Source of the DNA: Candidatus Micrarchaeia archaeon
Lineage (GTDB): Archaea; Micrarchaeota; Micrarchaeia; Burarchaeales; Fermentimicrarchaeaceae
Reading direction: 5' to 3'
NCBI GenBank assembly: GCA_038871515.1
Contig: JAVZHX010000002.1
Coordinates: 141,815-205,814, forward strand
Length of the DNA: 64,000 nt
Shown here: positions 21,729-38,400 of the stretch, piece by piece
Position numbering within the stretch: the stretch's first letter is position 1
Layout of the letters: every line of letters starts with the position of its first letter
Program-made: the position numbers and the translations under genes
Notes under the pieces: model-generated
Database searches by the model: none
Told to the model about the DNA's origin: nothing
Seen by the model: only the letters and a program-made list of their open reading frames with translations

Positions 21729-22661
21729 GTGATGCTTATGGCCGGAGCAGTTGTAGAGGCTAGACCAAGCCTTATTGGGTCAACAATCTGCGGAGAGAAA
21801 ATTGAGCCACGTGAGAGGATAAAGGAGGATGGGAGCAGGGAAACCGTAAGCCCGATTTTCATGACGGGTAAGGAACTTGTTGTGAAAACAACCTTTTTCA
21901 CAGCGGTGTTCTCTCTGGATGGCAAAAGAAGTCTGGAGGGACCAGCTATAATGAAGGATAAATTTTCTGCCCAGTCAACATTTGCCCTGTTTAAAGCTGG
22001 TGATGAGTTGGGAGTGAAAATCACCTCAGAGAAGCCCAGAAAAGAGAGGTTGTTTGTTGAGGTGGATGGCAACAACGTGAATTACCGGCTTGGAGGACAC
22101 CCTAACGTTATATTCACCAACAACGGTGAAAAAGGCAGACTCGGTGATCCGTACATCAAGATAATCCCTACTCTCATTCCGAAACTTGGCGGGGAGCTGG
22201 GAGATGAAATAAGGAAGGAGCATAAAAACGCAAGCGAAATGTACTTGGCAGTGGCGAAGAAGCTTCAGGAGAAAAACCCTGATAAGGGGTATGCTGAAGG
22301 TTCTGGTGCGGATGTGGGAATGAACTTTATGAAAGAAAAAATTTTTGTGAAGATGGATGCGAATGGAAGAATAAGTGAGTTTGGGAGAGTAGATCAGAAG
22401 GATAGATTTTCTTTCTATATAACGGATAATGGTGGTGTCGGTGTTATGATAAAGCCACAGGATATCAAGAACCTCACTAGAGAGCTTGGGGATACGGAAA
22501 CAGGAGTTGGGGTAGGGATGGCGTATGGTAACATTCCGTATTATTTGCCGAAGGTGCAGTACTTCATAACTGAACTTGAAAGGTTGAGCGGGCACAGAGA
22601 GGTAGTTGAATTCATCGAAAGCGGAGGTAAACCTCCATTCCCAAAACAGACTCTCGCATAG
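21729..22661 (+). CDS. hypothetical protein (310 aa)
   Basis: Long ORF with good coding statistics. The antisense 22026..22691 ORF is rejected as its shadow. Confidence 0.45.
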   Translation: MMLMAGAVVEARPSLIGSTICGEKIEPRERIKEDGSRETVSPIFMTGKELVVKTTFFTAVFSLDGKRSLEGPAIMKDKFSAQSTFALFKAGDELGVKITSEKPRKERLFVEVDGNNVNYRLGGHPNVIFTNNGEKGRLGDPYIKIIPTLIPKLGGELGDEIRKEHKNASEMYLAVAKKLQEKNPDKGYAEGSGADVGMNFMKEKIFVKMDANGRISEFGRVDQKDRFSFYITDNGGVGVMIKPQDIKNLTRELGDTETGVGVGMAYGNIPYYLPKVQYFITELERLSGHREVVEFIESGGKPPFPKQTLA

Positions 22662-22731
22662 TTCAAATGAACTTTTATCGGTAAAGCACACGATAATCTA
22701 GCTTGAGCAACTTTCTTATAAATCCGAAAGG

Positions 22732-22739
22732 TATATAAA
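22732..22739 (+). promoter_or_regulatory. TATA box (tatataaa) with purine-rich BRE-like upstream (ccgaaagg)
   Basis: Canonical archaeal TATA sequence about 26 nt upstream of an ATG at 22758, consistent with a leaderless transcript start. Confidence 0.3.
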
Positions 22740-22876
22740 CTTTTATCAGTTAATCAAATGCAATTAACCTCACGAGGTGATTTTCTTGGACGAGGAGGAA
22801 GAAGAGGAGGAAGAGGAGGAGTGGGACGAGGAGGACCTTGAGGAGGAAGAGGAAGAGGAGGAAGAGGAGTAACTGA

Positions 22877-22895
22877 TTCTATTTTTTTCTTTTCT
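22877..22895 (+). terminator. oligo-T tract (ctattttttcttttctg)
   Basis: T-rich run directly after the stop of the small poly-Glu ORF. Archaeal terminators are oligo-T tracts. Confidence 0.25.
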
Positions 22896-24049
22896 GCTTT
22901 GCACATAAATTCACCTTCACTGGAAAGTTACTCTCCTTCCAGACATTTATAAAGGCAAACACGGACCTTGTATTATGCTTGTCTCAAAAACGTTGAAATG
23001 CGAGGTTTTCAATCCAACAAAAAAGAAACTTTCACTGCTTACTCAGGAATACCAGAACTTCCAGATTTACGTGAGAAGTGGAAAGAACTTTGGGGTCTAC
23101 TCTTTGACAAAGGCAACATTTGACTTCAAGTACGAAAAGAAAGCAAAGAAGAAAAAGCAACCAATGCCACTCCATAACCGATCAACAAAGTTCAAAATCA
23201 CAAACAACAAGCTCACTCCTTACTGGTTCCGAGTTCCTGTTTATGGAAAAAGAGGTGGGATCTGGCTTCCAATAAAACTACATGAAAACATAGATTCTTC
23301 CTGGGAAGTAAGGGAAGCAAAAGTATTCAAAAGAAAGAAGGACTTCTGGATTTACATAACAATAAGAAAGGAAGTTCATCTCAAGACTTCATACTCCTCC
23401 ATCCTTGCCTTGGATGTTGGTGAAAAAGTGATAGCGACAGCCGTGCTGTCCAGCAAACGTAAGCCAATTTTCCTGGGCAGGGAGGTGAGAGGGATTAGGA
23501 GGCATCACGCCTGGTTGAGAAAAAGATTGCAGAAAAGAAAGATATTCAAGAAACTAAAGGAGATGAGAGGGAAGGAAAGAAGAAGAGTTGAGTTGGTTCT
23601 GCATGAAGTGTCAAAATACGTTGTGGAGCTGGCAGAAAGGAATAATTCAATAATTGTTTTGGGTGAGTTGAACGGAATAAGAAAAAAGAATAAGGGAAAG
23701 AGGTTGAACAGGATAATCAACTCATTTCCATTCAAAAAACTCTCCTTCTTCATTGAATACAAAGCACATGTGAAGGGAATTGCGGTTATAAAAGTTAAAG
23801 AGGATTATACAAGCAAGACATGCAGCAGATGTGGGGAGGAAGGAAAAAGAATAAAACAGGGTTTGTTCAAATGCTCTCATTGTAAATACCAGGTGAATGC
23901 AGATTATAATGGTGCGATGAATATCCTGAAGAGGTCCAGAAGCTACATGCTTCCGGACGGGGCTGTTGCTTTCAGCCCAGAACCGCCGATGACTGAGAAG
24001 ACGAGGGCGGAAGCATATAATATTTAAATTTATGTGCAAAGCATCAGAA
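22891..24049 (+). mobile_element. stand-alone tnpB insertion element bracketed by about 22-bp inverted repeats
   Basis: Left tttctGCTTTGCACATAAATT (about 22891-22911) and right AATTTATGTGCAAAGCatcagaaa (about 24028-24049) are reverse complements (16-bp perfect core plus flanks with one indel). Only one gene (tnpB) inside, no tnpA. Confidence 0.5.
22975..24027 (+). CDS. tnpB: TnpB-family RNA-guided endonuclease (IS200/IS605 OrfB-like)
   Basis: RuvC-I ILALDVGEK, RuvC-II VLGELNGIRK, zinc finger CSRCGEEG...CSHCKYQ, RuvC-III NADYNGAMNI. Confidence 0.85.
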   Translation: MLVSKTLKCEVFNPTKKKLSLLTQEYQNFQIYVRSGKNFGVYSLTKATFDFKYEKKAKKKKQPMPLHNRSTKFKITNNKLTPYWFRVPVYGKRGGIWLPIKLHENIDSSWEVREAKVFKRKKDFWIYITIRKEVHLKTSYSSILALDVGEKVIATAVLSSKRKPIFLGREVRGIRRHHAWLRKRLQKRKIFKKLKEMRGKERRRVELVLHEVSKYVVELAERNNSIIVLGELNGIRKKNKGKRLNRIINSFPFKKLSFFIEYKAHVKGIAVIKVKEDYTSKTCSRCGEEGKRIKQGLFKCSHCKYQVNADYNGAMNILKRSRSYMLPDGAVAFSPEPPMTEKTRAEAYNI

Positions 24050-24286
24050 AAGTTTAAATATTCCGTTAACTAATCTAGTTTCACTGAAAAGAAATCAGCA
24101 TCTGTTGCAGAACAGGTGCAAGCCTGCGCTGGGCTTATCTTCAGGGCGTCATTGCTCTGGGATGAATGCAGCGTGAGTGGGTGAGGATAGTTTTTATGTT
24201 AGCGTAGCTTCTTTTACTTTTGAAGTTTTTTTTCTCTTTCTCCATCATTTTTTTCCTAGCGGTTTTTCCGCAAGTGAGGTGGTAGT

Positions 24287-24568
24287 ATGGCAGAACCACC
24301 GGAGTGCGGAGCCAGAGCGCACCTTGAGTTCCACTGCTTGGAGTGCGGGAGGAAAGTTGAGCAGTATGAAACTGCATTCTTCAACAGAAAGGTATGCAGC
24401 GACTGCTACAGAAGAAAAGAGGAGAGGAGGTGCGCGCGTTGCTTCAGGAAGCTTGAGAGCTGGCAGGTGAAACTGCTTGATGGATGGGAGTACTGCGAGC
24501 TCTGCTTCCTGATTCTCGAGCGCTCCGCGAGCAGGGGCGCTTGGGGAGAGCAGTTCGCGTTCAACTGA
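24287..24568 (+). CDS. small zinc-ribbon protein with four CxxC pairs
   Basis: CLECG, CSDC, CARC, CELC form two Zn-ribbon knuckle pairs in 93 aa. Local GC about 58% versus about 43% background. Confidence 0.4.
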   Translation: MAEPPECGARAHLEFHCLECGRKVEQYETAFFNRKVCSDCYRRKEERRCARCFRKLESWQVKLLDGWEYCELCFLILERSASRGAWGEQFAFN

Positions 24569-24662
24569 TTTTTCACGAGCTAAATTCCCCTAGCGTGAGC
24601 CCTGCAAGAAAGGAGGTGCAGAGCAGTTGCGATGACGCGCCCCTTAAAAAAGAGGTGATTGG

Positions 24663-24863
24663 ATGAGAAGGAGAAGTTTGGAGGAGGAAGAGGAGCTGTT
24701 GAGGAAGCACTGGGAGCATATGCAGGAGGAGGAAGAGGAGGTTGAGTACAGCGCAGCAGATGATGAGTACGGGGAGGACTGGGATGACGAGCTGTGGGAA
24801 GAGGAGGAAGAGCTGTGGGTTGAGGAGGAGGAAGTTGAGAGGAGGAAGCCGAAGAAGGAGTGA
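24663..24863 (+). CDS. small highly acidic Glu/Trp-rich protein
   Basis: 66-aa ORF, more than 50% Glu/Asp with interspersed Trp (EDWDDELWEEEEELWVEEEE) and basic tail RRKPKKE. Low-complexity, could be non-coding. Confidence 0.3.
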   Translation: MRRRSLEEEEELLRKHWEHMQEEEEEVEYSAADDEYGEDWDDELWEEEEELWVEEEEVERRKPKKE

Positions 24864-24917
24864 GGAAAAGGGGCGGGGTTACCAAGGTGTGCCTGAAATC
24901 CGAAGATTTCTTATACC

Positions 24918-27099: not shown

Positions 27100-30000
27100 T
27101 TAGTACCTAGCTCTACTAATACTACCATAACTCATTTGCGTTGTTACAAGTTGATCGATTCTTTTAATGGCTTGATCAGCTGCTATTGAGAATCCTCTTT
27201 CTTCGCGGAAGCTTCTTGGGATTAAACCATATCTAATACCCGCTGGGTTGTAAGCAAACTTTCTTATTGCAATCACATCCTTAGCTGGCTCGTAGAATGC
27301 AACTGTTGTTCCTAGTTCGGAACCCAGCATCTCCCTAACCTGCTTTGGGTATGGGATTGGGATAATTGAGCCGTACATCTGCATCATTTGGTACTGAATT
27401 ACCTTTTGAACTTCTGGCGGCACTCTTGGGTTCTCAGCCATTGTTAACTTGAGCTCATCCCATCCTCCAGGCCACTCAGCGCTTATTGCAAGTCTTTTTC
27501 CCCAGTATGAGAGATATGTGGATGGGCCCTCAAAGATACTTTTGAAAGCGCGTATATGCCAAGGCAATCCCACATCGGGCAGTTCAAGTGCCTCCTGCCA
27601 TGGTTCTATATCCCAGTATCTGTTAAGCCTCAAACCCTTCCATACATAGGCAGTTCCATAAACCTGGCTTTCCCAAACTGACTGCATAGTTCTTGCAGGT
27701 CCACCTGAACCTCTGCCTGTCAGATGGGAGCTCCACTCTATTATTTTATTCATTGTTCTACGAACCCCCTCCTCTCCTGTTGAGGTGGGGTACCCTGTCA
27801 TTTCCCACTCGCCAACCTTTCTTGTACCTGTCTTTGCCCCGTATATTCCGTAAGCACCAGCAGTTATCACAGCTGCCGCTCCCACTCCTATAAATGGCAT
27901 TGCGAACGGCGCAGCAACTGTTGCTGCAAAGAGAAGTGTTTTTCCATGCTGAACCGCAAACTTCTCAATATTTTCAACTGCTTTTGAAGCGAAACCGGTT
28001 GCACGTTCGGATGAAACTCCGTGTATGCCAAGCCTTATTCTCAAATCTTTATCAACGGATTCCTCTATAAACTTGTGGATGCGCTCCTCGCTTCCTGGGC
28101 CTGCCCATTGAGTCATCTTTCTATAAGGCGCATACATGTATGTCGCATCGTAAGTATCCTTGAAGCTCTTCCAATCCTTGCAAACCTCAATTAACTCTTT
28201 CTGTTTCTCCCTTCTCTCTTCAAGCTTCTCTTGCAGTTCGCTGTTTAGTTCAACTGCCTCAGCATCAATTTTACCTTTTTTCTCCTTCAGCTTCTTCTCA
28301 AGTTCGCTAATTTCAGATGAAATTCCTTTTATTTCATTTCGGAGCTTGACGGCTGTTGCTTCGTACTTTGCAAGTGCATTCTCAGATACACTTCTGTCGA
28401 GCTGGCCGGCCCACCATCTGGCTTCCTCCCAGAATCCTCTTCCCTTCCTTTTATCCTCAGGGTACTCCTCCCTTAATTTCTTGAGTATTTCTGCTGTCTG
28501 TGATTGCATAAGCCCTCCGCTTGCTGCCTCTCTCTGCAGTAGTTCTGCTGCCTGCATAACAAGCGCAAATCTCTCCAATTTATCCTCCATTCTCTTAAGT
28601 CTCTCATACCTCTTTTCTCTCTCGGGTTGTGTTAAAGGCAGTTCCCCAAACTCCAAAACGTTTGTCAGCTTATCCCTCTCTGCCTCCAGCTCCTTCTTGC
28701 GGTTCTCCAGCATCTCAATTCTCTCTCTCCACCCCGCTTTCCTGGCTGACTCCAACTCAGCTTCTACCGCCCTTATTCTTAAATTAACTTCTTGCAGCTC
28801 ATATTTTGCAGTTTCAGGCAGAGTTTTGCGAGCTTCTTCAATCTCGCGATACAACTTCACGTATTTATCCATAGTAGTCGGGTCTAAGAACTGCCCATAG
28901 GTGAGATTCGTTAGGTATAACATGCTGCTTAAAGTTCTCTCCTTTTTCTTCAAGTGAGCGTCCAGCTCCTTTGTAACTTTTTCGTATTCCTCTATATTCT
29001 TAGCTCCAAACTCCTTCAGTTTGGATCTATCTATAACTCCAATTCCTGCTTTTTCTTTAAGTTCTTCCTTATCCTTCTCAAGCTTTGTGATTATCGCCTG
29101 CACCTCTATTAAATCTCGGTGCATCCCTGTTTCACTTCCCCCAAGGCTTGTCCCAGCTTCTTCCATTCTCCTGCGAGTCCACTCGGCAAGATTGATTGTT
29201 TCAAGTTTGTCCCATTTGTTCTTAAGTTTGCTGTATGTCGCCCTCAGAGCTTTTTCATACTGGGATTTAACTCGCTCCCTCTCTTCCCCCTCAAGCTTAT
29301 CTGTATTATTATACTTTTTCACCTCGCTTGCTTTTTCCACCCCAAGCGTTTTTATCAAACCCAAAACATATGGGTTTGGTTTTTCAAGCGCATCAGCTCT
29401 CAATATGCTCATCTCAGAGAGAACAGCCTCCCTATCGCGCAGTATTTTCTGCCCACCGACTCGTATGATAGTTCTCTCAGCAGTTTCGTCCACTGCTCGT
29501 TGTAAGTCAAAGCGGCGCCTATCAATTGCTCTGCGAAGATCGTTTATATCATTCTCCTTTTTCAGTATTGATAGTTCAAGCTTATGCAATCTGTCCTCAA
29601 GTTTTTTATAATCATTAGTGTTCTTCTTCCCTGCTTTTTCAAGTTTCATCATTCTATCCTCAATTTTCTTTTTATTTTCCTCATCCTTCCTCAATTTCTC
29701 CTCAATTGTATTTATTCCACGCTCTAGATTTCTTTTTACTTCATCCCTATCTCTGTCGAATGCTTCCAAACGTCTCTGGGCAAGCAAAGCTTGATTCAGC
29801 ATAAGATGTGTTGTTATCAGTTCAACATTTCTCTCCGCCTTAGCCAACTCCTTTTTGGCATCTCTTATCTGCAGGTTTGTTCTAGCAAGCTCTTCCATCT
29901 TCGCCTGTAACTCCTTTTCCTTTGCCTTATACTCTTTTGTGTTTGGATTTAATTTTTCAAGCTGTGATTTGAGATTTTCGCATTCCTCCTTCAACTCAGC

Positions 30001-32463
30001 TCTTTTTGCGTAGAGAGGTTTCTTCTCAAATATTCCCTTAAGTTTCTTCTGCTTTTCTTCAACTTCCATTTGCTGCTTTCCAAGCAATCTCATAAAGTGT
30101 TGTTTCTTCATCTCCTCTTCCGAAAGTTTGGATATTGTAGGGCCAATAATATTCTCAAACTCTGATGCAATCTGCCTTAAATTCTGGGTTTTCTGAAAAC
30201 CGCTTGCCGCAAATGCAACCCCCCTTATTGCAAGCGCTTCCGGCGTATAGTGCCCTTTTGCTGCCTCTGCTCTTTGACCCCACATATCAAACAAGCGCTC
30301 CACGCCAAGCCATGTTGCTCGGTCATGTTCCGGAGTTAAATAGGGTTTTACAGTATGGCGATAGTACGAATCCTCTAGCTTTCTGTAACCGGACATAACT
30401 TTAAGCGCTTTCTCAAGTGGTTTTACTCGGGCTTGGTGCTCCTTCCAAGTGATGTTATGTTTGTTGTAATATAGGTCATCCAGATTGCTTATTTTTTCTT
30501 TTATAGCTGATATTGCCTCCCTTGTCATATTCACTTTGTCACTCCTATACTGCCCCATCAAAGATGCTCCAATTATGCTTGGTGCAATTTTTGACAACTC
30601 ACTCATTTTCTTATCAAGTTCCTTTGTTTTTTTCTTGTACTCCTCAACTGAAATTTGCCCAGCGACTAACTTCGTGTTCAGATCTTTCAGCTGAGTGCGT
30701 ACTTCATTTAATTTATCCCTAGCATCTGGAGGAAGCAGGATGTTGTTAACTTCCCCAATTTTCTTTTGGAATTGATTTATTTTATCAGTCAGCTCATCGC
30801 TTCGGCCTTTCTTACTGAGCTTTTCGATATCTTTCGCCAGCCCCTTTATCTCCTTTTTTAATATGTTGAGTTCTCTCTTCTGCGTTTTGGTAAGTCCTCT
30901 CTTCGATTTTGTATCTCTCAAAACTCTATCGATAATCCCTCCCCTCATATCTTCCATCAGTCTTTTCTGATGCTCAACAGTGTCTCTCAGCAACCCTGCA
31001 ACTTGTGCAGGAGTGAGGGTTGGGTCCTTGAGCATTGCAAGGTTTTTCTCAATATGCTCTCTTCTTCTTTCTGCAATAGTAACTCTTGCAATGATATTTG
31101 GCTTGAATCTCGCTCTTTCATAGCGCACCCTTGCAACTCTGTATGGAACATTCTGCAGTAAAGATGAAACAAACCCAGTTGTGCTTGAGATGAACCAACC
31201 CTTTAGGGTTGCTTTCAGAACTTCCTTTCTGCTCAACTGCTCAGGGTTGAAGACTCTTACGAGCATTCCCCTCTGGCTGAGCCGATCATATCTTTCTTTT
31301 AACCCTTTCAGTTTTTTTTCATCCTCCTTGCTGAATTGTGATGGGTTCTTATTCTTTTTCTCTTCAAGTTTTCGGATTTCTCTTCTAAGTTTCCATCTTT
31401 GAGATGGTTTTACTATAATTGTTGATATTGGGTATTTCACTCCTAGGTAGGCAAAGCTCGCGGCAGCAGCAGGTGCATATGCCATCATCTTAATTCTTCC
31501 AATCACCCCCCCAACATCCGCAAGCTGTTTTCTGTATTCATCCATCTGCTTGATTAAACCATCATAAACTGCAACTTTCTTTTCGGCTTCTCTTATTTTC
31601 TTATTCAGAGTTGCAACATCCTTCCCCAACTTAGTTCTGTAAAGTCTTTTTTCAAGGTTTCCAATTTCCTTGCTGAGAGCAGCAAGACGCGCCATATCCT
31701 TGTCACTAAGTTTCTCTCCTCTCAGCTGCTTTAACTTTAGATTAGCATGCTCTCTCTTCTTCTCTCTTATGGCTTCCCTTAGACTGACAAAATTTTTCAG
31801 GTTTTTCAGCTCTCTTTTTTCTTGGGCAGTTAATCCTTTATCCTTTTTCTTCTCCTCAAGCTCTGTTATTCTATTCCTTGCCCCTTGTAGGTTCATTACA
31901 CTAGCAAGACTGGTTGCCAACATACTACGTAAGCTCTTCACTTCGCTTTCTTTCCTAGTCTTCTCTCTTTCAATTCTGCCTTCATAACCGCCACCCCTTT
32001 TTCCCTTTGATAACGCGTATAAAGCACCCCTATCTGCCATTGTTTTTAGTGTTTTCACACCTTCCTTTGCTACCTTTGAACCGTACTTCCCACCACTCGC
32101 CTTTGAAACAACTGTTGCAGCACCCTTTGCCATCTTGTTAGCAACCCATCCAAAACCTCTTGTTAGGTAATTTCCTCCTCCGAGCTGATCCCTCTTCTTC
32201 GCAACAGTGTCAAATCCACCAGAGGTGAACGATTTAAAGTGGTAGGAAGTCGACTTTATTTCAGCAGGTGGTTTTGAGATGGATATGTCAAACCCAACAA
32301 GGGGGCTTCTTCCCTGAGCAATCATACCCGCCATAAGCAGAGCAAGAAGGAGGAAGAAGGGGAAGCAGATTGATATGTCGCCCATGCTCGCGTATGAAGC
32401 ATTTGCAAGCATTATGAGCAATAACAAAACGAATGGAACTCGGAGTAGTGGTTGGTTAACCAT
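27100..32463 (-). CDS. giant (1787 aa) coiled-coil membrane protein
   Basis: N-terminal pair of hydrophobic helices, about 1300 aa of K/E/R-rich heptad coiled coil, central TM hairpin (LLFAATVAAPFAMPFIGVGAAAVITAGAYGIYGA), then an approximately 350-aa Trp/Tyr-rich C-terminal globular domain. Confidence 0.6.
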   Translation of the reverse strand: MVNQPLLRVPFVLLLLIMLANASYASMGDISICFPFFLLLALLMAGMIAQGRSPLVGFDISISKPPAEIKSTSYHFKSFTSGGFDTVAKKRDQLGGGNYLTRGFGWVANKMAKGAATVVSKASGGKYGSKVAKEGVKTLKTMADRGALYALSKGKRGGGYEGRIEREKTRKESEVKSLRSMLATSLASVMNLQGARNRITELEEKKKDKGLTAQEKRELKNLKNFVSLREAIREKKREHANLKLKQLRGEKLSDKDMARLAALSKEIGNLEKRLYRTKLGKDVATLNKKIREAEKKVAVYDGLIKQMDEYRKQLADVGGVIGRIKMMAYAPAAAASFAYLGVKYPISTIIVKPSQRWKLRREIRKLEEKKNKNPSQFSKEDEKKLKGLKERYDRLSQRGMLVRVFNPEQLSRKEVLKATLKGWFISSTTGFVSSLLQNVPYRVARVRYERARFKPNIIARVTIAERRREHIEKNLAMLKDPTLTPAQVAGLLRDTVEHQKRLMEDMRGGIIDRVLRDTKSKRGLTKTQKRELNILKKEIKGLAKDIEKLSKKGRSDELTDKINQFQKKIGEVNNILLPPDARDKLNEVRTQLKDLNTKLVAGQISVEEYKKKTKELDKKMSELSKIAPSIIGASLMGQYRSDKVNMTREAISAIKEKISNLDDLYYNKHNITWKEHQARVKPLEKALKVMSGYRKLEDSYYRHTVKPYLTPEHDRATWLGVERLFDMWGQRAEAAKGHYTPEALAIRGVAFAASGFQKTQNLRQIASEFENIIGPTISKLSEEEMKKQHFMRLLGKQQMEVEEKQKKLKGIFEKKPLYAKRAELKEECENLKSQLEKLNPNTKEYKAKEKELQAKMEELARTNLQIRDAKKELAKAERNVELITTHLMLNQALLAQRRLEAFDRDRDEVKRNLERGINTIEEKLRKDEENKKKIEDRMMKLEKAGKKNTNDYKKLEDRLHKLELSILKKENDINDLRRAIDRRRFDLQRAVDETAERTIIRVGGQKILRDREAVLSEMSILRADALEKPNPYVLGLIKTLGVEKASEVKKYNNTDKLEGEERERVKSQYEKALRATYSKLKNKWDKLETINLAEWTRRRMEEAGTSLGGSETGMHRDLIEVQAIITKLEKDKEELKEKAGIGVIDRSKLKEFGAKNIEEYEKVTKELDAHLKKKERTLSSMLYLTNLTYGQFLDPTTMDKYVKLYREIEEARKTLPETAKYELQEVNLRIRAVEAELESARKAGWRERIEMLENRKKELEAERDKLTNVLEFGELPLTQPEREKRYERLKRMEDKLERFALVMQAAELLQREAASGGLMQSQTAEILKKLREEYPEDKRKGRGFWEEARWWAGQLDRSVSENALAKYEATAVKLRNEIKGISSEISELEKKLKEKKGKIDAEAVELNSELQEKLEERREKQKELIEVCKDWKSFKDTYDATYMYAPYRKMTQWAGPGSEERIHKFIEESVDKDLRIRLGIHGVSSERATGFASKAVENIEKFAVQHGKTLLFAATVAAPFAMPFIGVGAAAVITAGAYGIYGAKTGTRKVGEWEMTGYPTSTGEEGVRRTMNKIIEWSSHLTGRGSGGPARTMQSVWESQVYGTAYVWKGLRLNRYWDIEPWQEALELPDVGLPWHIRAFKSIFEGPSTYLSYWGKRLAISAEWPGGWDELKLTMAENPRVPPEVQKVIQYQMMQMYGSIIPIPYPKQVREMLGSELGTTVAFYEPAKDVIAIRKFAYNPAGIRYGLIPRSFREERGFSIAADQAIKRIDQLVTTQMSYGSISRARY

Positions 32464-32484
32464 CGTTATATACTATCTCTTTTT

Positions 32485-35400
32485 TTACTTATTAAACTTT
32501 CGTTTTTTCATCAAAAGCAGCAAAGCAACAATCAGTATAAGCGGTTCAAGCACAGGGAAGCTGCCGATTGCAACAGATACGCCACCTGCGTAGAATGGTT
32601 TGATTTCTATGGAGGGAGCATAAATATCTGTTCCCCAGAAAACTCCAAATAGTAACCTTCTTCCAAACCCATAGATTTTGAAGGTTGTGTTCACGTGCCC
32701 TGTTGCATTTGTTATGAAGTACGGGTTGCCGGTTTCCAAGTGAGAGAGTATTCCGTACTGATGACAGACTGGGTTAGGCAGACAGTCACCAGTGCCTCCA
32801 GGTTCATCTATCCAGTCTGGGCAGGAGCAGTTGCTCTCCTCAGGTGCAATTGGGCAGACGCCTGAAACAGCTGGGTTGCAGTTAACTGGGTCAAGCTGGC
32901 TTCCATCCCCGTACAGAGTTCTGCTTGAGTTCTGAACGTACAGCTCCATTACTTGACCTGGAAGGGGTGTATTGGGCTTCTCCTCAGGCTTATCCCATCT
33001 CTGGTATAACAGCTGCGCAGTCACATACACAATTGTCCTGTTTATGTTTTGTGGGTCTCTGACTGTTTGGACTTGCATTATTATGGCAGTTGGCTGTCTC
33101 AACCAGATTGTGTATGGAACAATGAATGTATTGTTGAACCTATCAAAGAATCTGTAATGGAAGTTGTGCAAGCCCAATGAGTCATTATCCGGTATATTCA
33201 ATACAACTGAATCCTGCTGTGAGTAGATGAAGGTGCCTGATTTGTTCTGGTAGAAACCAAGCACAAAGTCGTTTGGAACAACGTTAATAACACCTATCTG
33301 CTCCGGAGTAACCGCAGTTGATAACCCATCCAGATAAAGAGGAGCAGTTGTTACATTGAAATGCTCGCCTTCGTTCCCTTCAATTTCTATAGAGAGCACA
33401 TGTGTAAATGTTTCGTTTGTCTCAAATGAAACAAGGGAAACGCCTGTGGAGGTGGTGACATTGAACGAGTTGCTGAAGCCAACTGTCACGTCGTTTTCTG
33501 CTTTCAGCATCTCATTGGTAATCCCCTCACCAAGCATCACATAACCGCTCCAAACTCCATTGTAGAATGGGCCAATCTGCCTTGGGCAGATGTTGTTTCG
33601 TGTGTAGGCACCGCCAGTATCAGATAGAGTTGCATTGCCGTTGAATTGGCAGATATTGCCAGGTGGGTAAATTCCAAGCGCATCAACACTACATCCATAA
33701 TGATACTGCTCGTTCCACGGCGGTTTAGTTTCGTCTGTTATATCTTTAAACCAGAAGCATACCGCATCAACTGTCCCGTTTGATAAACTTATCTCGTGCA
33801 GGGGGCCCGAACCGGGAGCTGTTCGGGCGTAGAATACGTAGCTTGAATTATCCTTATATGGGGGCAGTATCTTCTCCCAGCAGTCAGTAGCATTTGATAC
33901 ATAAAGCTCTATTTCGGTGTAATCCTTTGAACATGTTATGTTAAACCTGAATTCCTTAACTGATAGTGATCGGCCGAACGTTCCAAAGATGCCGGGGACG
34001 AAACCGCCATAGGAGCTTGACTCCCAGAAACATGCTGTTTTTCCATCTGGCGTACCAAGCATATTTGTGGGTGGAGCATCACTTCTGGAGGGGTTTAGAC
34101 AACCGCTTGACTCAGCGTTGATAACTGGGTAGGTTGTCCCCAAAGGAACAGTGCGGATTCTTACTTGGAAAGGAACTCCTGCGGTTTGGGGACTTGTAAT
34201 TGGGTCAAACTGAAAACCACATCCTAGTAGAACTGAATCTGGTTGCACTACTGCTGGGCTTGGAAGGGCACATGTGAGTGCAGGTGTGCCAACTGAACTC
34301 TCTTCAACAATTACGTTGTTGTTGCGCGTTCCCTTTATTGTATACCCAATTGTCCTGTCAACTGATATCATATTGGAGTTTATTCTCAACCTTCTTGGGT
34401 TTGGGAGTATTGTTGCAATTGAGGAGTACGCAGTGTAATTTGAACTTGGCAAGGATATTCTTGCCAGCTCATTTTTTGTAGTTGCAGTTCTGAATATCAG
34501 GGTTTCACCTTTAATTCCATCCTTCACCTCAATTATATAGACTGCGCTGTATGGGCCACCTAAACCAAGATAGTCCATTGAGCTGTAACTGCTAAGTTCA
34601 ACCGAGCCATTTATCAAATTGTAATTGCCGCTTGTGTCTGTCCCAACAATCGTTATCCTTGTTTTGTTATTTGAATCATGGTCCCTTGTTGATGCAACTT
34701 CAATTGATTCATTGAAGAGAGAGACATCGATTCTTGGGCATACAAAGGAAGGCGCGCATGGCGGACCACTTGGGTGCATCCCAACACCACATTTTAAATA
34801 ATCAGATTGGCAGAAACCACCGATGCATTTTCCCTCAGAACAGTTGATGTCCGCGGTGCATGGAATACAACTTCCAACTGTGAAATTATCAACGCGCAGT
34901 ATCACGTCAGGGTCGGTATAAACCTCAAACTGATCACCAAGATAGCCCTTCCCGCTGACAGAGCTTATGAACATGAAGTTTCTGTTCCTTGGGTCGTCTG
35001 GAACAACCTGCACCATTCCTCGTGGAGGCATATATGTGAATGATGGAACCGCTGTGTAGGTATTTACATCGTAGTAGGCATACTGCCCTTTCCATAGGAA
35101 AAGCTCGCCTATTATGCTTGAACCGAATGGGTCTTTGGAGAATTGGATAAGACAGCCATTTTCACATCCACCCCAAACTTCCACAAGTAGAACATCTGTT
35201 TCGCTAGCAGCGTGAGGGGCAGCGGATACCCAACCGTCGGAGGTTTGGTATGAAATTATACTCCAATCCATCGGAGGCCAGGAGAAAATACGGAATGTGC
35301 CGTTGCCATCAGAGCGGAGATAAAGGCTGGTGGAGGTTATACCTCTGAATGGAAGTGGGTTAGGCAGATCTTTACCCATGAAATCTGCAGCTCCAGATAT

Positions 35401-38400
35401 TTTGCTTTCATTATCATTTTCAGGTGGGATGTCAATTCTTCTGCTTGCGTTGAATCCATGAATTGCGAGCAGGGTTGGGCCGCTTATCTTAACTGGTTTG
35501 ATAAGGAGGGATGAGGGGAACGGAGCGTAAGGTTCACCAAGGAGCGGGTACCTAGTGGGTGAGTCTATATATTCATCATACCCGGTTTGCGATACAACTG
35601 TATTTGGCGGTATAGACTTTTTGAACCAAGCGCGCGTGTTGTGGCACATACTGCTATTCCTTCCAAAAATATCCTCAAAGCATATTCCATTATCAGTTGA
35701 GAGGTTTGCGGGCATTATGAAGAGGGATGCTTCCTCAGGTGCTCCTGTTATGGATATTGCGTGGATTATGTAGCAGTAACCAAATGGAGTGTAGCTTGAA
35801 TTTGTTACTGTTATTGAGTAAGTTACATTAACCCTTGCGCTTGTCTCGCACAGTATTGAAACAAGCAAGGAGGAGACGTTTGTTATTGCTTGGTAGTAAT
35901 AATCTGAAGCACCATCAGGTGGTGGATCCTGTGGAGCGAATGGCAGTGGGTTTGGCTCCTTGTGCACTGGACTGAACACATATGCAAAAGGATAGCTCCA
36001 GTTCATTGTGTTATTGAATGGAATTGTTTTGTTTTTTACCACACCACCTTCAACTACAGTTAAAACGTACGGGTTTTTGTTAGGATCGTTTCCAAACATG
36101 TTCGTAGTTGGATACTCAAAAATATAGAGTGGATTTTGGTGCCCGTACTGATCAACAGTTGGTGTTGTTGAGATGTATTGATAACCGTAATACTGATTCT
36201 GCATTATGTTGAATGTTTTTCTGTAGCTTGCGTTAAGTATCCACTGGTGGTCATCTGGCGGAGCCATGTAGTTGCTTACTCTGTCCATCATAACGAAATG
36301 CTTGTAGAAGAATCTGTTTGTAAGGTAGTTGTAAGCAAGATAAGGAAGGGTGCTTGGTGTTTTCTTTGGTGGGGTTAGGTAGGCTGGCCTTGTGAGAGAG
36401 AAGTGGGAGCCGCCTCCCTCAACAAGCCTCTCAAGGTGGTTGCTGTAGCTAGTTATATTGAGCTGTTTGTTTATCACGGAGGTGCCGGAGAGGGAGCCTC
36501 CGCTTGGGCAGCCGTTGGAGTATTTTCTTATTGTAAACGTGTAATCAAACCTCAGGAACGCAGTGATGTTTGTTGCAAGGAAGTTTCTTCTGTAAATAGG
36601 GCTGAGCGGGGCGGAGAGCTTAACCACTGGACTTCCTGGAGCAATACTCCCAGAAGTGAGTAATCCCTCTATGTTGGAGTATTCTGTTGTTTTTGTTTTC
36701 TCAACCTCTCCCTCGCATACGGAGGGCTCAACTGCTCCTTCCTGAGAGCAACCCTCGCATGAAACTCCTGCCATCATTGACTCCTTTATTAAATCCGGAT
36801 ACCCTATTACATCATCTGGGTGGTCAACCGCTGGTGACTCCACCATTGAGCCAGAATAAACAAAGGAGTATGAGCCACCTGGGAAATTATAGCTTTGGTC
36901 TTGAATTCCTGGTTGGAATTTGTACTTGACTACCATGTTGCGTTCTCCTTTCAATGCAATGTATACGTTAAACTTGTTGTCAACATCTATTCCATGGGTT
37001 TCGGATGATTTACCTTGCACATACTGCAAGCCTGCTGAGAGTAGGCCCCATGGGTCGTACCATGCTTTCCAGAGAGTAACGTATTCTTTTGGCTCAATCA
37101 CAACTTTCGCTCTGTACTGCTTCCCAGGAGTTTCAATTGTGTCAAATGCAAGAATTCTAGTCATCTCATATTCTTGCGTGTCGTACCAAAGGCATGCATT
37201 GCAGTTATTTGGATCGGGGCACCAGAGGCATCCCCCATCCTGAGTGCAGCCAGTGCCTGGGTTTCTGTAACAACCAATTTTAAATCCGAATATATCTAAA
37301 CAGCCCGGCATACAGCAACCCAAACACTCCATTGGGAAGCCACTACAGCCAAAGTAACCAGTTCTAACTGGAAATGCCATATAGTCGATCACAAACAAGT
37401 AACCCTTTCTGTATTTAATCCCCCTCAGATAGTGATACCCTCCTTCCTCACCCCAAAAGCTCTGAGTTTCATTTACATTATCAACATATGTTTTAGTTCC
37501 TGCTTCATTTGTGCATGGCGGATCTAAAATAACTCCTAGTGGGTTCAGCTCTTGTAATTCAATTCCACCATCACCCCCAAAGATGCTGATTTTAGAAACT
37601 TCCTGGGCTGGGTTGGATGCGTTGTACTGATGTATAAACGGATAACCAACCCAGAAGCACCCCCACCACTCGCAGTGGCGTTTCTTATCCCTCACTACAA
37701 ACAGACTTGCACCATCCTCGGTAACCGCTATATCTCGCGCTGTTCCCTCCCAGGCTTCTGTGCAGTTGTTGCTTGCATTCAGCTTGAACTCCTTATCGTA
37801 TTTGTTTATGCAGATGTGGTTGAATACTGTATCGGGGTAGGTGTTGCCAAGCACGTACAAATTGCCCCAGCTATCCGTGTCTAAACCATACGGGAAGAAG
37901 TACTGGCCATCCTCAGTAATTGTATCAATTTCAGTTACAAAGTGAATTGTTGGTGGGTAACTTCTAACTATTTTCACAACTTGCACTTTGGGTGAGTTAG
38001 TTAATGCAATGAATATATTGCCTCTGTTATCATACGCAATTGCCTGTGCATTCGAATCAATTAGGGGTGTGGCGCCAGGTATTGGCTTGCCGTTTATCAA
38101 CCCATTATAATCCTCCAGCCATGAGGAGGGTACCCTTAAAGTGAACTTTCCAAGCCTCCCTCCATCTTTGTGGTCAACAACAAGCAGTGCTTCTGGGGAG
38201 CGCAACTCGTGTGGGTTGAGAATTGAATCGTTTGTTATGTTGTATGGCTCAAGCGCAGTTAAAGGAAGAGTTACTGTTATGTTGAAGTAATCAGTATATA
38301 CATTTCCTGGTGCGAACTGAACGTCATATCTATCACTGCCAACGCACACGCTTGATGTTCCGCTGAATGGGTAGTAACCCCAACCCCAGAGGACTTCTGG

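What the first reader, a model, noticed from the sequence alone, without database searches (positions are those of the whole stretch)
22891..24300. Solo TnpB element flanked by about 22-bp inverted repeats. Putative omegaRNA/guide region at right end
The tnpB gene has intact RuvC I/II/III and zinc-finger motifs. No tnpA accompanies it. Unusually for IS200/IS605, the ORF is bracketed by a perfect 16-bp (extended about 22-bp) inverted repeat, the right copy starting 1 nt after the stop codon. By analogy with characterised TnpB systems, the 3-prime end of the element should encode the omegaRNA scaffold, with an about 16-nt guide just outside the right end (about 24050-24070). This would be an active or recently active RNA-guided nuclease locus.
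Basis: partly seen in the sequence, partly recalled or inferred. Interest (0 to 1): 0.55.

Follow-up and report, generated by a model that had tools for sequence, protein, structure and literature searches.

The report
TnpB-only transposon with inverted-repeat ends
This is a 1.15-kb mobile element of a Micrarchaeota (DPANN) archaeon that carries only the RNA-guided nuclease TnpB and its guide-RNA scaffold. Unlike ordinary TnpB elements, it ends in inverted repeats and duplicates 8-10 bp of its target, as cut-and-paste transposons and eukaryotic Fanzor elements do.

Summary
A perfect 17-bp inverted repeat (22895-22911 and 24027-24043) brackets an intact 350-aa tnpB (22975-24027) with no transposase nearby.

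In 13 independent relatives from other Micrarchaeota, homology starts and stops exactly at these repeats, so they are the element's ends. Nine of the 13 insertions carry an 8-10 bp flanking direct repeat. The window itself holds the unoccupied site (32493-32502) of one related insertion, which shows a true target-site duplication. Inverted-repeat ends plus a target duplication are not IS200/IS605 behaviour. They point to a staggered-cut, probably DDE-type, transposase acting in trans, which I did not find.

The 3' end (23934-24043) encodes a four-helix RNA plus a pseudoknot with strong covariation, which I read as the omegaRNA scaffold. The right repeat arm forms its last hairpin and the pseudoknot tail. 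The guide should start at 24044, not 24050.

- The canonical RuvC-II glutamate is glycine, with a relocated invariant Glu276. This is a known rearranged TnpB type.
- Recent activity is unproven. Copies are at most 87% identical, although dN/dS is about 0.11, and the window copy lacks the duplication.

Verdict: a new variant of a known kind, of moderately high interest.

The parts
22895..22911 (.). Left terminal inverted repeat (TGCTTTGCACATAAATT). The outermost base is T here and G in most other copies.
   Evidence: Perfect reverse complement of 24027-24043. Homology among 13 copies from other genomes begins here. It lies upstream of the TATA box, so it is a DNA-level feature and not part of the tnpB mRNA.
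22912..22974 (+). Conserved left-end interior. It holds the CACTGGAAAGTTAC motif and an archaeal TATA box, TTTATAAA, at 22946-22953, about 22 nt before the ATG. A leaderless tnpB transcript is inferred.
   Evidence: Conserved in all copies. The same segment occurs as a solo left end in front of another gene at L005:1630-1690. The promoter function is inferred from sequence only.
22975..24027 (+). tnpB, 350 aa. It has RuvC-I D147, Gly230 at the canonical RuvC-II position, a relocated invariant E276, a zinc finger (C283/C286/C300/C303) and RuvC-III D310.
   Evidence: The AF2 model has pLDDT 84, and its best structural matches are AsCas12f/OsCas12f, then TnpB. dN/dS is about 0.11.
23934..24043 (+). 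omegaRNA scaffold. Helix 1 is 23934-23958, helix 2 is 23960-23978, helix 3 is 23983-24010 and helix 4 is 24013-24037. The pseudoknot pairs the helix-2 loop TGCTTT (23967-23972) with the 3' tail AAAGCA (24038-24043).
   Evidence: RNAalifold and pair counts: 98.2% of cells paired against about 40% when slid; 7 pairs show compensatory change in the close clade and 18 of 30 when distant relatives are added. The pseudoknot is 6/6 complementary in all 18 sequences, with three different sequence versions. Covariance model R1 finds it only at tnpB 3' ends. Residues 326-350, coded by helices 2-4, are predicted disordered.
24027..24043 (.). Right terminal inverted repeat (AATTTATGTGCAAAGCA), which is also the 3' strand of helix 4 plus the pseudoknot tail of the omegaRNA.
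   Evidence: (homology of all copies stops at 24043). The same sequence is kept in sister lineages that have no left arm (L174, L137).
24044..24059 (+). Predicted guide (TCAGAAAAGTTTAAAT), the first 16 nt of flank after the scaffold. The 16-nt length is assumed by analogy.
   Evidence: Inference from TnpB biology and the position of the pseudoknot tail. The flanks of different copies are unrelated from this base on. Not tested experimentally.
32493..32502 (+). Unoccupied target site (TAAACTTTCG) orthologous to the insertion site of a related copy (L130). It is not part of the window's own element, but it proves the family's target-site duplication.
   Evidence: L130 flanks align to window 32156-32502 and 32540-32880. 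The window has one copy of TAAACTTTCG, while L130 has one on each side of the element.

Best explanation
The feature is a 1,149-bp non-autonomous transposon (22895-24043) of a Micrarchaeota archaeon. Its only cargo is a TnpB RNA-guided nuclease and the omegaRNA encoded over the 3' end of tnpB.

**Shown:**
- The element is delimited by 16-17 bp terminal inverted repeats.
- Related copies are flanked by 8-10 bp target-site duplications.
- An empty site exists for one related insertion.
- The 3' 110 nt fold into a four-helix, pseudoknotted RNA that ends exactly at the right end.
- The right repeat arm is part of that RNA.
- tnpB is under strong purifying selection.

**Inferred:**
- The element is moved in trans by an unidentified transposase that cuts the target with an 8-10 bp stagger. 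It is most likely a DDE-type enzyme. The left end, GGCTTTG in most copies (TGCTTTG in the window copy), together with an 8-9 bp duplication, resembles IS1 and IS6 ends.
- The lineage descends from ordinary Y1-type IS605 elements and later gained an inverted copy of its RNA-constrained right end at the left end.
- TnpB is transcribed from the TATA box at 22946, and its mRNA 3' part is processed into an omegaRNA whose guide is the flank from 24044 onwards. In copies with a duplication, the guide is therefore the duplicated target plus 6-8 nt.
- The TnpB-omegaRNA complex cuts unoccupied copies of the insertion site, that is a T-rich motif, then the target, then the flank. Recombinational repair then copies the element back in or into empty alleles (homing or retention).
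- The occupied site escapes cutting because the right target copy follows AAGCA instead of the T-rich motif, and the left copy matches only 8-10 nt of the guide.
- Catalysis uses D147, D310 and the relocated E276.
For: **Ends.**
- A perfect 17-bp repeat marks both ends.
- Alignments of copies from different MAGs lose homology exactly outside the repeat arms.

**Target duplication.**
- 9 of 13 independent insertions score at least 6 on an 8-point flank-match scale, against 3.8% of mismatched left/right pairs (binomial p about 1e-10).
- The duplications are perfect in L130, L002, L001 and L144.
- The empty site at window 32480-32505 holds a single TAAACTTTCG, where L130 has one copy on each side of the element.

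**omegaRNA.** Covariation is reported, the pseudoknot, and model R1 matches only tnpB 3' ends.

**Protein.**
- Gly230 and Glu276 are invariant in 36 relatives and in a Halorubrum homologue that sits next to a Y1 tnpA.
- The glycine-for-glutamate rearrangement with a compensating glutamate is described for large TnpB branches (PMC10691335).
- dN/dS has a median of 0.11.

**T-rich motif.** T occurs at -4 in 9 of 9 and at -3 in 7 of 9 sites upstream of the left target copy.

**Precedent.**
- Six DDE-associated TnpB branches have inverted terminal repeats, and solo TnpBs are mobilised in trans (PMC10691335).
- Fanzor-only TIR/TSD elements exist in which the TIR forms part of the guide-RNA scaffold (PMC10711439).
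- The ISfinder end consensus GGnnnTG with an 8-9 bp duplication applies to IS1, and is also common in IS6/IS26.
Against: - No transposase was found. None lies beside any of about 20 related copies, none within about 4 kb of the window copy, and no IS1 or IS6 transposase turned up in 272 kb of held archaeal DNA. No other element with these repeats was seen.
- The right end reads TGnnnTG, not GGnnnTG.
- The window copy and three others lack the duplication. In the window and in L141 the flanks are inverted relative to each other instead, which is unexplained.
- The right repeat arm is older than the left one: sister lineages L174 and L137 keep it without a left arm. It is odd that a foreign transposase should recognise an RNA-constrained sequence.
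- No two copies are near-identical (maximum 86.6%), so current mobility is unproven.
- Nuclease activity of this Gly230/Glu276 type, the guide length and the T-rich motif are all untested here.
Confidence: 0.6

Rival explanations
1. An ordinary IS200/IS605 (IS1341-group) solo-TnpB element, moved as single-stranded DNA by a Y1 TnpA supplied in trans. On this reading the inverted repeat is incidental or is a pair of subterminal hairpin sites.
For: NCBI names the relatives 'IS200/IS605 family element transposase accessory protein TnpB'. A 34%-identical Halorubrum homologue with the same active-site rearrangement sits directly after a Y1 tnpA. Sister lineages L174 and L137 have no left repeat arm.
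Against: IS200/IS605 elements by definition have no terminal inverted repeats and make no target duplications (PMC13565253; PMC3119063). This element has both, confirmed by an empty site. The repeat is not itself a palindrome or hairpin.
Confidence: 0.06
2. TnpB itself, an RNase-H-fold RuvC nuclease with a rearranged active site, acts together with its omegaRNA as the transposase. The last 17 nt of the RNA scaffold are identical to the right end, and so complementary to the top strand of the left end and the bottom strand of the right end. The RNA could therefore recognise both ends, with no separate transposase needed.
For: Every copy is solo, and no partner transposase was found anywhere. 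The right repeat arm is an RNA element, and the left arm is a later inverted copy of it. Low copy number with well-kept duplications despite old divergence fits an element that relocates rather than multiplies.
Against: No TnpB has been shown to catalyse strand transfer. Known TnpB cleavage occurs 15-21 bp from the target-adjacent motif, not at element ends (established knowledge, not tested here). In the predicted fold most of the 17 nt are already paired within the RNA. Failure to find a partner rests on only about 270 kb of sequence.
Confidence: 0.04
3. An immobilised, domesticated TnpB that has lost nuclease activity (the RuvC-II Glu is missing) and acts as an RNA-guided DNA-binding regulator of neighbouring genes, like TldR proteins.
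For: The canonical RuvC-II Glu is Gly. Purifying selection is strong (dN/dS 0.11) with no recent duplicates. A solo left end appears to supply a promoter to a host gene in L005.
Against: Copies sit at unrelated sites in different genomes with target duplications, so they are mobile. D147, D310, the zinc finger and a relocated Glu276 are invariant. The same rearrangement occurs in a Y1-linked IS605 copy and characterises large branches that Altae-Tran et al. infer, from its conservation, to be still active. The guides differ at every site, with no common target gene.
Confidence: 0.08
4. The inverted repeat is a host palindromic or regulatory repeat (an operator or a REP-like sequence) unrelated to the mobility of tnpB.
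For: One left arm occurs without tnpB, at L005:1630.
Against: Within the window, 8 genome loci and 16 metagenome loci, the motif occurs only at tnpB element ends. The one exception is that solo left end, which also carries about 45 nt of adjacent element sequence. Element homology and the target duplications begin exactly at the repeat.
Confidence: 0.01

Closest known systems
Prokaryotic TnpBs carried by DDE-type transposons with inverted terminal repeats (branches DDE-1 to DDE-6 of Altae-Tran et al. 2023, PMC10691335; the transposases are listed as ISL2, IS630 and IS1031 in PMC13565253)
   Same: TnpB plus omegaRNA sit inside an element with symmetrical inverted-repeat ends. The tnpB 3' end lies close to the right end. 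Solo copies are presumed to be mobilised in trans.
   Different: No transposase is linked to this clade. The duplication is 8-10 bp, not the TA or 2-3 bp that I recall from ISfinder (not checked in a held paper) for IS630 and the IS5 subgroups ISL2 and IS1031. The host is a DPANN archaeon. The right repeat arm is demonstrably part of the omegaRNA and is older than the left arm. I could not check whether the published tree contains this clade, because no supplement is held.
Eukaryotic and viral Fanzor1 and Fanzor2* elements in TIR/TSD transposons, including non-autonomous Fanzor-only elements (Yoon et al. 2023, PMC10711439)
   Same: A TnpB-family nuclease is the only gene of a non-autonomous element with inverted-repeat ends and a target duplication, moved by an unknown transposase. 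The terminal repeat forms part of the guide-RNA scaffold. The RNA reads out into the flank.
   Different: This one is archaeal, is a small TnpB (350 aa) and keeps a pseudoknot. The duplicated target is variable in sequence, so it is more likely part of the guide than of the scaffold. It is an independent origin, with only 14-21% identity to Cas12f/TnpB/Fanzor2 structures.
IS200/IS605 family, IS1341 group (solo tnpB)
   Same: Gene content (tnpB only) and an omegaRNA over the 3' end with a flank-derived guide. The wider protein clade includes Y1-linked IS605 elements.
   Different: This element has terminal inverted repeats and a target-site duplication, which the family lacks by definition.
IS1 and IS6/IS26 families (DDE transposons)
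   Same: The left end of most copies, GGCTTTG, fits the ISfinder end consensus GGnnnTG, although the window's own left end reads TGCTTTG. The 8-9 bp duplication fits IS1 (8-9 bp) and IS6 (8 bp). Frequent loss of the duplication is typical of replicative IS1/IS6 behaviour (own knowledge).
   Different: No IS1 or IS6 transposase was found. The right end reads TGnnnTG. The resemblance covers only seven bases and the duplication size.
Cas12f (type V-F CRISPR effectors)
   Same: Best sequence and fold matches among solved structures. The NCBIfam Cas12f2 model scores 151 bits.
   Different: That score is far below the Cas12f2 cutoff of 450. There is no CRISPR array nearby. The gene is transposon-borne with a flank-derived guide. 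The canonical RuvC-II Glu is missing.

Membership tests
TnpB (OMEGA RNA-guided nuclease) | Sequence membership: TnpB HMM above the curated cutoff | tested here: met
   NCBIfam NF040570 guided_TnpB scores 167 bits against a cutoff of 100. Pfam PF07282 scores 78.6 bits against 26.3.
TnpB (OMEGA RNA-guided nuclease) | RuvC-I Asp, RuvC-III Asp and a CxxC...CxxC zinc finger | tested here: met
   D147, D310 and C283/C286/C300/C303 are invariant in 36 relatives and align to Cas12f motifs.
TnpB (OMEGA RNA-guided nuclease) | Canonical RuvC-II Glu (the xxEDL motif) | tested here: not met
   Invariant Gly230 aligns with the Glu of Cas12f 'MEDL'. An invariant Glu276 before YTSKTC is the likely relocated residue, as in the published RuvC-II-rearranged branches. 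This places the protein in a known TnpB subtype and does not exclude membership.
TnpB (OMEGA RNA-guided nuclease) | A structured omegaRNA overlapping the tnpB 3' end and ending at the element's right end | tested here: met
   Four helices plus a pseudoknot with covariation, ending at 24043, the last conserved base.
TnpB (OMEGA RNA-guided nuclease) | RNA-guided, TAM-dependent DNA cleavage | not testable with these tools
   Only a T-rich bias upstream of target sites was seen.
IS200/IS605 (including the IS1341 group) | No terminal inverted repeats; asymmetric ends with subterminal hairpins | tested here: not met
   The terminal inverted repeat is 17 bp in the window copy and 13-16 of its 16 core positions match the consensus in the other copies.
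IS200/IS605 (including the IS1341 group) | No target-site duplication | tested here: not met
   An 8-10 bp duplication occurs in 9 of 13 insertions, and one empty site confirms it.
IS200/IS605 (including the IS1341 group) | A Y1 (HUH) TnpA in cis or in the genome | tested here: not met
   None lies next to any copy. Whole genomes could not be searched.
IS607 | A serine-recombinase TnpA; no TIR and no TSD | tested here: not met
   No serine recombinase is nearby, and both a TIR and a TSD are present (definition from PMC13565253).
Non-autonomous TIR/TSD (DDE-type) transposon | Terminal inverted repeats that coincide with the limits of the mobile unit | tested here: met
Non-autonomous TIR/TSD (DDE-type) transposon | A target-site duplication of fixed length, confirmed by an empty site | tested here: met
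   The length is 8-10 bp, depending on whether the outermost left base belongs to the element.
Non-autonomous TIR/TSD (DDE-type) transposon | An autonomous partner with the same ends that encodes the transposase | tested here: inconclusive
   Not found in the window, in about 270 kb of related loci or in viral contigs. The one metagenome pattern scan returned only chance hits. Complete genomes could not be scanned.
IS1 / IS6 families | GGnnnTG ends and an 8-9 bp duplication | tested here: inconclusive
   The left end is GGCTTTG in 9 copies but TGCTTTG in 4 (including the window copy) and AGCTTTG in 1. The right end is always TGCTTTG when read inward. The duplication size fits.
Cas12f (type V-F) | An adjacent CRISPR array, and a score above the Cas12f model cutoff | tested here: not met
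   No array lies in 22300-24900. The Cas12f2 model scores 150.8 bits against a cutoff of 450.

The most novel reading that the evidence does not exclude
A lineage of TnpB elements has abandoned the Y1 single-strand mechanism and moves with inverted-repeat ends and an 8-10 bp staggered target cut without any dedicated transposase. TnpB, with its rearranged RuvC site, would itself do the end cleavage and joining. Its omegaRNA 3' segment is identical to the right end, and so complementary to one strand of each element end. In that case this would be an RNA-directed transposase made from a guide-RNA nuclease.
Probability: 0.04. Interest if true: 0.95.

Novelty: new variant of a known kind. Interest (0 to 1): 0.6.

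Why it matters
TnpB is the ancestor of Cas12 and Fanzor. In prokaryotes it is almost always tied to scarless Y1 or serine transposition, and that link underlies the current 'restorative homing' model.

This archaeal clade shows the TnpB-omegaRNA module working inside an element with inverted-repeat ends and a variable 8-10 bp target duplication. That architecture has so far been described mainly for eukaryotic Fanzors and a few bacterial DDE-linked branches.

Three points follow:
- It shows how such a switch can happen. The right terminal repeat is simply the RNA's last hairpin and pseudoknot tail, and the left repeat is a later inverted copy of it.
- It predicts a guide that begins with the duplicated target, so the nuclease would recognise the intact, unoccupied site. 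That is directly testable.
- It offers a very small (350 aa) nuclease with a defined 110-nt RNA scaffold as a candidate editing tool.

Tried and rejected
1. **Rfam.** No family matched at gathering thresholds over the whole window. Only noise appeared at E up to 10 over 22700-24400.
2. **Metagenome scan for the repeat** (GCTTTGCACATNNATT).
3. **Viral-contig scans.** The protein profile found one distant relative. The 17-mer repeat gave 26 chance hits.
4. **Empty site for the window's own insertion.** The nearest homologue of the upstream neighbour is only 55% identical and synteny is lost.
5. **Partner transposase.** tblastn with IS26 and IS1 transposase sequences written from memory, against 272 kb of held archaeal DNA, gave nothing below E = 1. 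Pfam on 10 neighbouring ORFs found no transposase.
6. **Supplement of Altae-Tran 2023**, to place the clade in their tree: not held.
7. **Left repeat arms in sister lineages** (L133, L135, L137, L140, L174): none found. A Halorubrum Y1-linked relative also has no terminal repeat and no match to the RNA model.
8. **The 'extended 22-bp' repeat** was rejected as an element feature, because it is flank specific to the window.
9. **A second subterminal inverted repeat** (CACTGGAAAGTTACCCC against helix 2) was considered, but the similarity is too weak to claim.
Full report
**1. Observation**

The window holds an intact 350-aa ORF at 22975-24027 on the + strand. It matches the TnpB/Cas12f nuclease domain: Pfam PF07282 at 3.8e-22, and NCBIfam guided_TnpB at 167 bits against a cutoff of 100. 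The Cas12f2 model scores 151 bits, far below its cutoff of 450.

TGCTTTGCACATAAATT at 22895-22911 is the perfect reverse complement of 24027-24043. These are the only two matches in 64 kb, even with three mismatches allowed. The right arm starts at the last base of the stop codon. No second tnpB copy or fragment lies in the window. Ten neighbouring ORFs within about 4 kb include no transposase.

**2. The repeat marks the ends of a mobile unit**

- A scan of one genome per species found eight loci in Micrarchaeota MAGs that encode 79-85% identical proteins. There are two per genome in Ca. Fermentimicrarchaeum limneticum Sv326 and in two other MAGs.
- A protein search found the window's own protein (NCBI, 'Candidatus Micrarchaeia', 272-kb contig), about 25 close relatives, and then a gap down to 54% identity or less.
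- Contig look-ups added seven more loci.
- In alignments of both ends, similarity between copies begins at GCTTTGCACATAAATT on the left and stops at ...TGTGCAAAGCA on the right. Everything outside is unrelated.

The element in the window is 22895/22896-24043. The stretch 24044-24300 is not part of it.

**3. Target-site duplication**

The flanks of most copies repeat each other directly. In the notation below, the sequence left of the element comes before the slash and the sequence right of it comes after.

- L130: TAAACTTTCG/TAAACTTTCG.
- L144: CAGTAACTT/CAGTAACTT.
- L002: AAATGTATT(G)/AAATGTATT(C).
- L001: AAACATTC(G)/AAACATTC(T).
- L003, L005 and L132 have one mismatch each; L006 and L142 have two.

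Against all mismatched left/right pairings, 9 of 13 independent insertions reach a score that only 3.8% of the controls reach (binomial p about 1e-10).

Mismatches pile up at the base next to the left end, where the left copy is nearly always G. The best register is therefore an element starting N-GCTTTG (N is G in most copies and T in the window) with an 8-9 bp duplication. A 9-10 bp duplication is the alternative reading.

The decisive result came from an all-against-all flank search. The flanks of the L130 insertion align to window 32156-32502 and 32540-32880, between two giant ORFs. The window reads TTTTTTTACTTAT-TAAACTTTCG-TTT once, at 32480-32505. L130 reads ...ACTTAT-TAAACTTTCG-[element]-TAAACTTTCG-TTTGAC. 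That is an empty site and a genuine duplication.

IS200/IS605 and IS607 elements have neither inverted-repeat ends nor duplications (PMC13565253; PMC3119063). The element is therefore not mobilised the way its annotation implies.

**4. The RNA**

*Helices.* The last 110 nt of the element are far more conserved than the protein they encode. RNAalifold on 15 close copies predicts four hairpins, and the single window sequence folds with z = -3.1.
- On the close clade, 98.2% of cells are paired, against 33-48% when the partners are slid. Seven pairs show changes on both sides, six of them in helix 1 (23934-23958), where the encoded peptide varies freely.
- A covariance model built from these sequences finds one match in the window, at 23920-24043. 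It finds full-length matches at the 3' ends of five distant tnpB relatives with 44-54% protein identity (E from 1e-10 to 1e-16).
- With four of those relatives included, 18 of 30 pairs show compensatory change and 96.8% of cells are paired.

*Pseudoknot.* The six bases before the 3' strand of helix 2 (TGCTTT, 23967-23972) are complementary to the last six bases of the element (AAAGCA, 24038-24043).
- This holds 6/6 in all 18 sequences.
- It covaries: GGCTTT/AAAGCC in L174, GTGAAC/GTTCAC in L135, and wobble variants in L133, L140, L130 and L001.
- One caveat applies: for three distant sequences the tail register was chosen as the best of four.

*Reading.* A structured RNA that overlaps the tnpB 3' end, ends at the transposon end and has a pseudoknot next to the flank is the known omegaRNA architecture. 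No Rfam family covers it. The AF2 model (pLDDT 84) predicts residues 326-350, coded by helices 2-4, as disordered. That fits RNA-level constraint on this stretch.

**5. The repeat arms have different histories**

The right arm (24027-24043) is the loop and 3' strand of helix 4 plus the pseudoknot tail. Nearly the same sequence, AATTTTTGTGCAAAGC(C/A), ends the RNA in sister lineages L174 and L137, which have no left arm. More distant relatives end in AGTTCAC and also lack terminal repeats.

A 34%-identical Halorubrum homologue lies directly behind a Y1 tnpA in a classical IS605 arrangement, without terminal repeats.

My inference is that the clade descends from Y1-type IS605 elements, that the right end sequence is ancestral and RNA-constrained, and that the left arm is a later inverted copy of it.

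**6. The protein**

D147, D310 and the four zinc-finger cysteines are invariant in 36 relatives. At the canonical RuvC-II position the family has an invariant Gly230 (VLGELNG). This aligns with the Glu of 'MEDL' in solved Cas12f structures. The next residue varies (D/E/N), while Glu276 before YTSKTC is invariant. The Halorubrum Y1-linked homologue shares both features.

This matches the glycine-for-glutamate rearrangement with a compensating glutamate described for large TnpB branches, which were judged still active (PMC10691335). 'Intact RuvC II' is therefore wrong in the literal sense, but the enzyme is probably functional.

The best fold matches are AsCas12f and OsCas12f, followed by ISFba1 and ISDra2 TnpB.

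**7. Activity**

Among 13 copies the highest nucleotide identity is 86.6%, dS is 0.5-1.4 and the median dN/dS is 0.11. Some copies are decaying: L007 has a frameshift, L008 has an internal deletion, and L004 has a degraded left end.

There is no sign of a recent burst. The gene is nevertheless maintained by selection, and several duplications are better preserved than synonymous sites. That combination fits a low-copy element that relocates occasionally.

The window copy has a perfect repeat, an intact ORF, a promoter and an intact RNA fold, but no duplication. Its flanks are weakly inverted instead. The same is true, more strikingly, of L141, which has 9 perfect nucleotides. I cannot explain this.

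**8. Mechanism**

Inverted-repeat ends plus an 8-10 bp duplication of variable sequence indicate integration at a staggered cut. The usual agent is a DDE transposase, here acting in trans.
- GGCTTTG, the left end of most copies (the window copy reads TGCTTTG), together with an 8-9 bp duplication, resembles the ISfinder signature of IS1 (GGnnnTG, 8-9 bp), which is shared by many IS6/IS26 elements.
- However, the right end reads TGCTTTG, and no transposase was found anywhere I could look (and all the look-ups).
- Nine duplicated sites have T at -4 (9 of 9) and at -3 (7 of 9) upstream of the left target copy, where T makes up 38% of flank bases. This may be the target-adjacent motif.

If it is, the guide (duplicated target plus 6-8 nt of flank) matches the intact, unoccupied site exactly, while the occupied site is protected. 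That gives TnpB a homing or retention role whatever transposase moves the element.

**9. Comparison with known systems**

- Altae-Tran et al. 2023 report six DDE-linked TnpB branches with inverted terminal repeats, and solo TnpBs with the same ends. A 2026 review names the transposases as ISL2, IS630 and IS1031. From my own recollection of ISfinder, those families make TA or 2-3 bp duplications, not 8-10 bp.
- Yoon et al. 2023 describe Fanzor-only non-autonomous TIR/TSD elements in which the terminal repeat is part of the guide-RNA scaffold. That is the closest functional analogue.

This element is therefore a new variant of a known kind. It is archaeal (DPANN), solo, with an 8-10 bp variable duplication, a repeat arm derived from the RNA and an unknown mobilising enzyme.

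The most radical reading not excluded is that TnpB and its RNA do the transposition themselves. I give that about 4%.

Noticed in passing
window 32480-32505 (core 32493-32502): Unoccupied target site orthologous to the insertion of a related TnpB element in another Micrarchaeota contig (L130). It lies at the junction of two giant ORFs, 27100-32463(-) of 1787 aa and 32485-40587(-) of 2700 aa. 26 nt are identical to the L130 flank, although the surrounding DNA is only about 75% identical.
   Followed up: yes
L005:1630-1690 (Ca. Fermentimicrarchaeum limneticum Sv326, CP058998): A solo left end, made of the repeat arm plus about 45 nt of conserved left-end sequence including a TATA-like box. It sits directly upstream of a 196-aa gene followed by a 323-aa ORF I took to be radA from its sequence (no domain search run), 2.3 kb from a complete element. 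It is either a remnant of a lost copy or a donated promoter.
   Followed up: partly
window 22888-22894 / 24046-24052, and L141:1177-1185 / 2327-2335: Two of the four copies without a target duplication have flanks that are inverted repeats of each other. In the window it is CTTTTCT/AGAAAAG. In L141 it is GTAAATACA/TGTATTTAC, extending to about 20 nt with gaps. In addition, the L141 right flank AAATGTATT equals the duplicated target of the unrelated L002 insertion. None of this is explained.
   Followed up: partly
window 24080-24195: A GC-rich segment just beyond the element folds stably (-43 kcal/mol, z = -2.9). It is preceded by a TATA-like TTTAAATA at 24053-24060 and followed by a T-run at 24192-24196. 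It is not shared with other copies and has no Rfam match. It may be a small RNA or the leader of the downstream gene.
   Followed up: partly
window 22785-22872 and 24663-24863: Two small ORFs that encode almost pure poly-Glu/Asp peptides flank the element, with similar GAGGTGATT ribosome-binding regions. The gene between the element and the second one (24287-24568, 93 aa) is a double C4 zinc ribbon. The gene downstream of the L144 copy is also a zinc-ribbon repeat protein, with weak similarity (E = 4e-5 pairwise).
   Followed up: partly
L008:3975-4344; L007:4001-5043; L004:3925-3960: Decaying copies. L008 keeps part of the left end, the last third of tnpB, the whole omegaRNA and the right end, so it is an internal deletion. 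L007 has a frameshift. L004 has a degraded left repeat arm.
   Followed up: partly
L133:5001-6049 and L134: A 53%-identical TnpB with the same RNA fold lies between portal and terminase genes, in what looks like an archaeal virus or provirus.
   Followed up: no
L144:491-1639: A second, canonical-looking TnpB of 382 aa (with HTH_OrfB_IS605 and OrfB_IS605 domains) lies 1.4 kb upstream of the inverted-repeat-type element, separated from it by a RuBisCO large-subunit gene.
   Followed up: no
L177:2097-3643 (Halorubrum ezzemoulense megaplasmid NZ_CP034941): A 34%-identical TnpB with the same Gly-for-Glu RuvC-II rearrangement sits directly after a Y1 tnpA. This shows that the rearranged type also occurs in classical IS605 elements.
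   Followed up: partly
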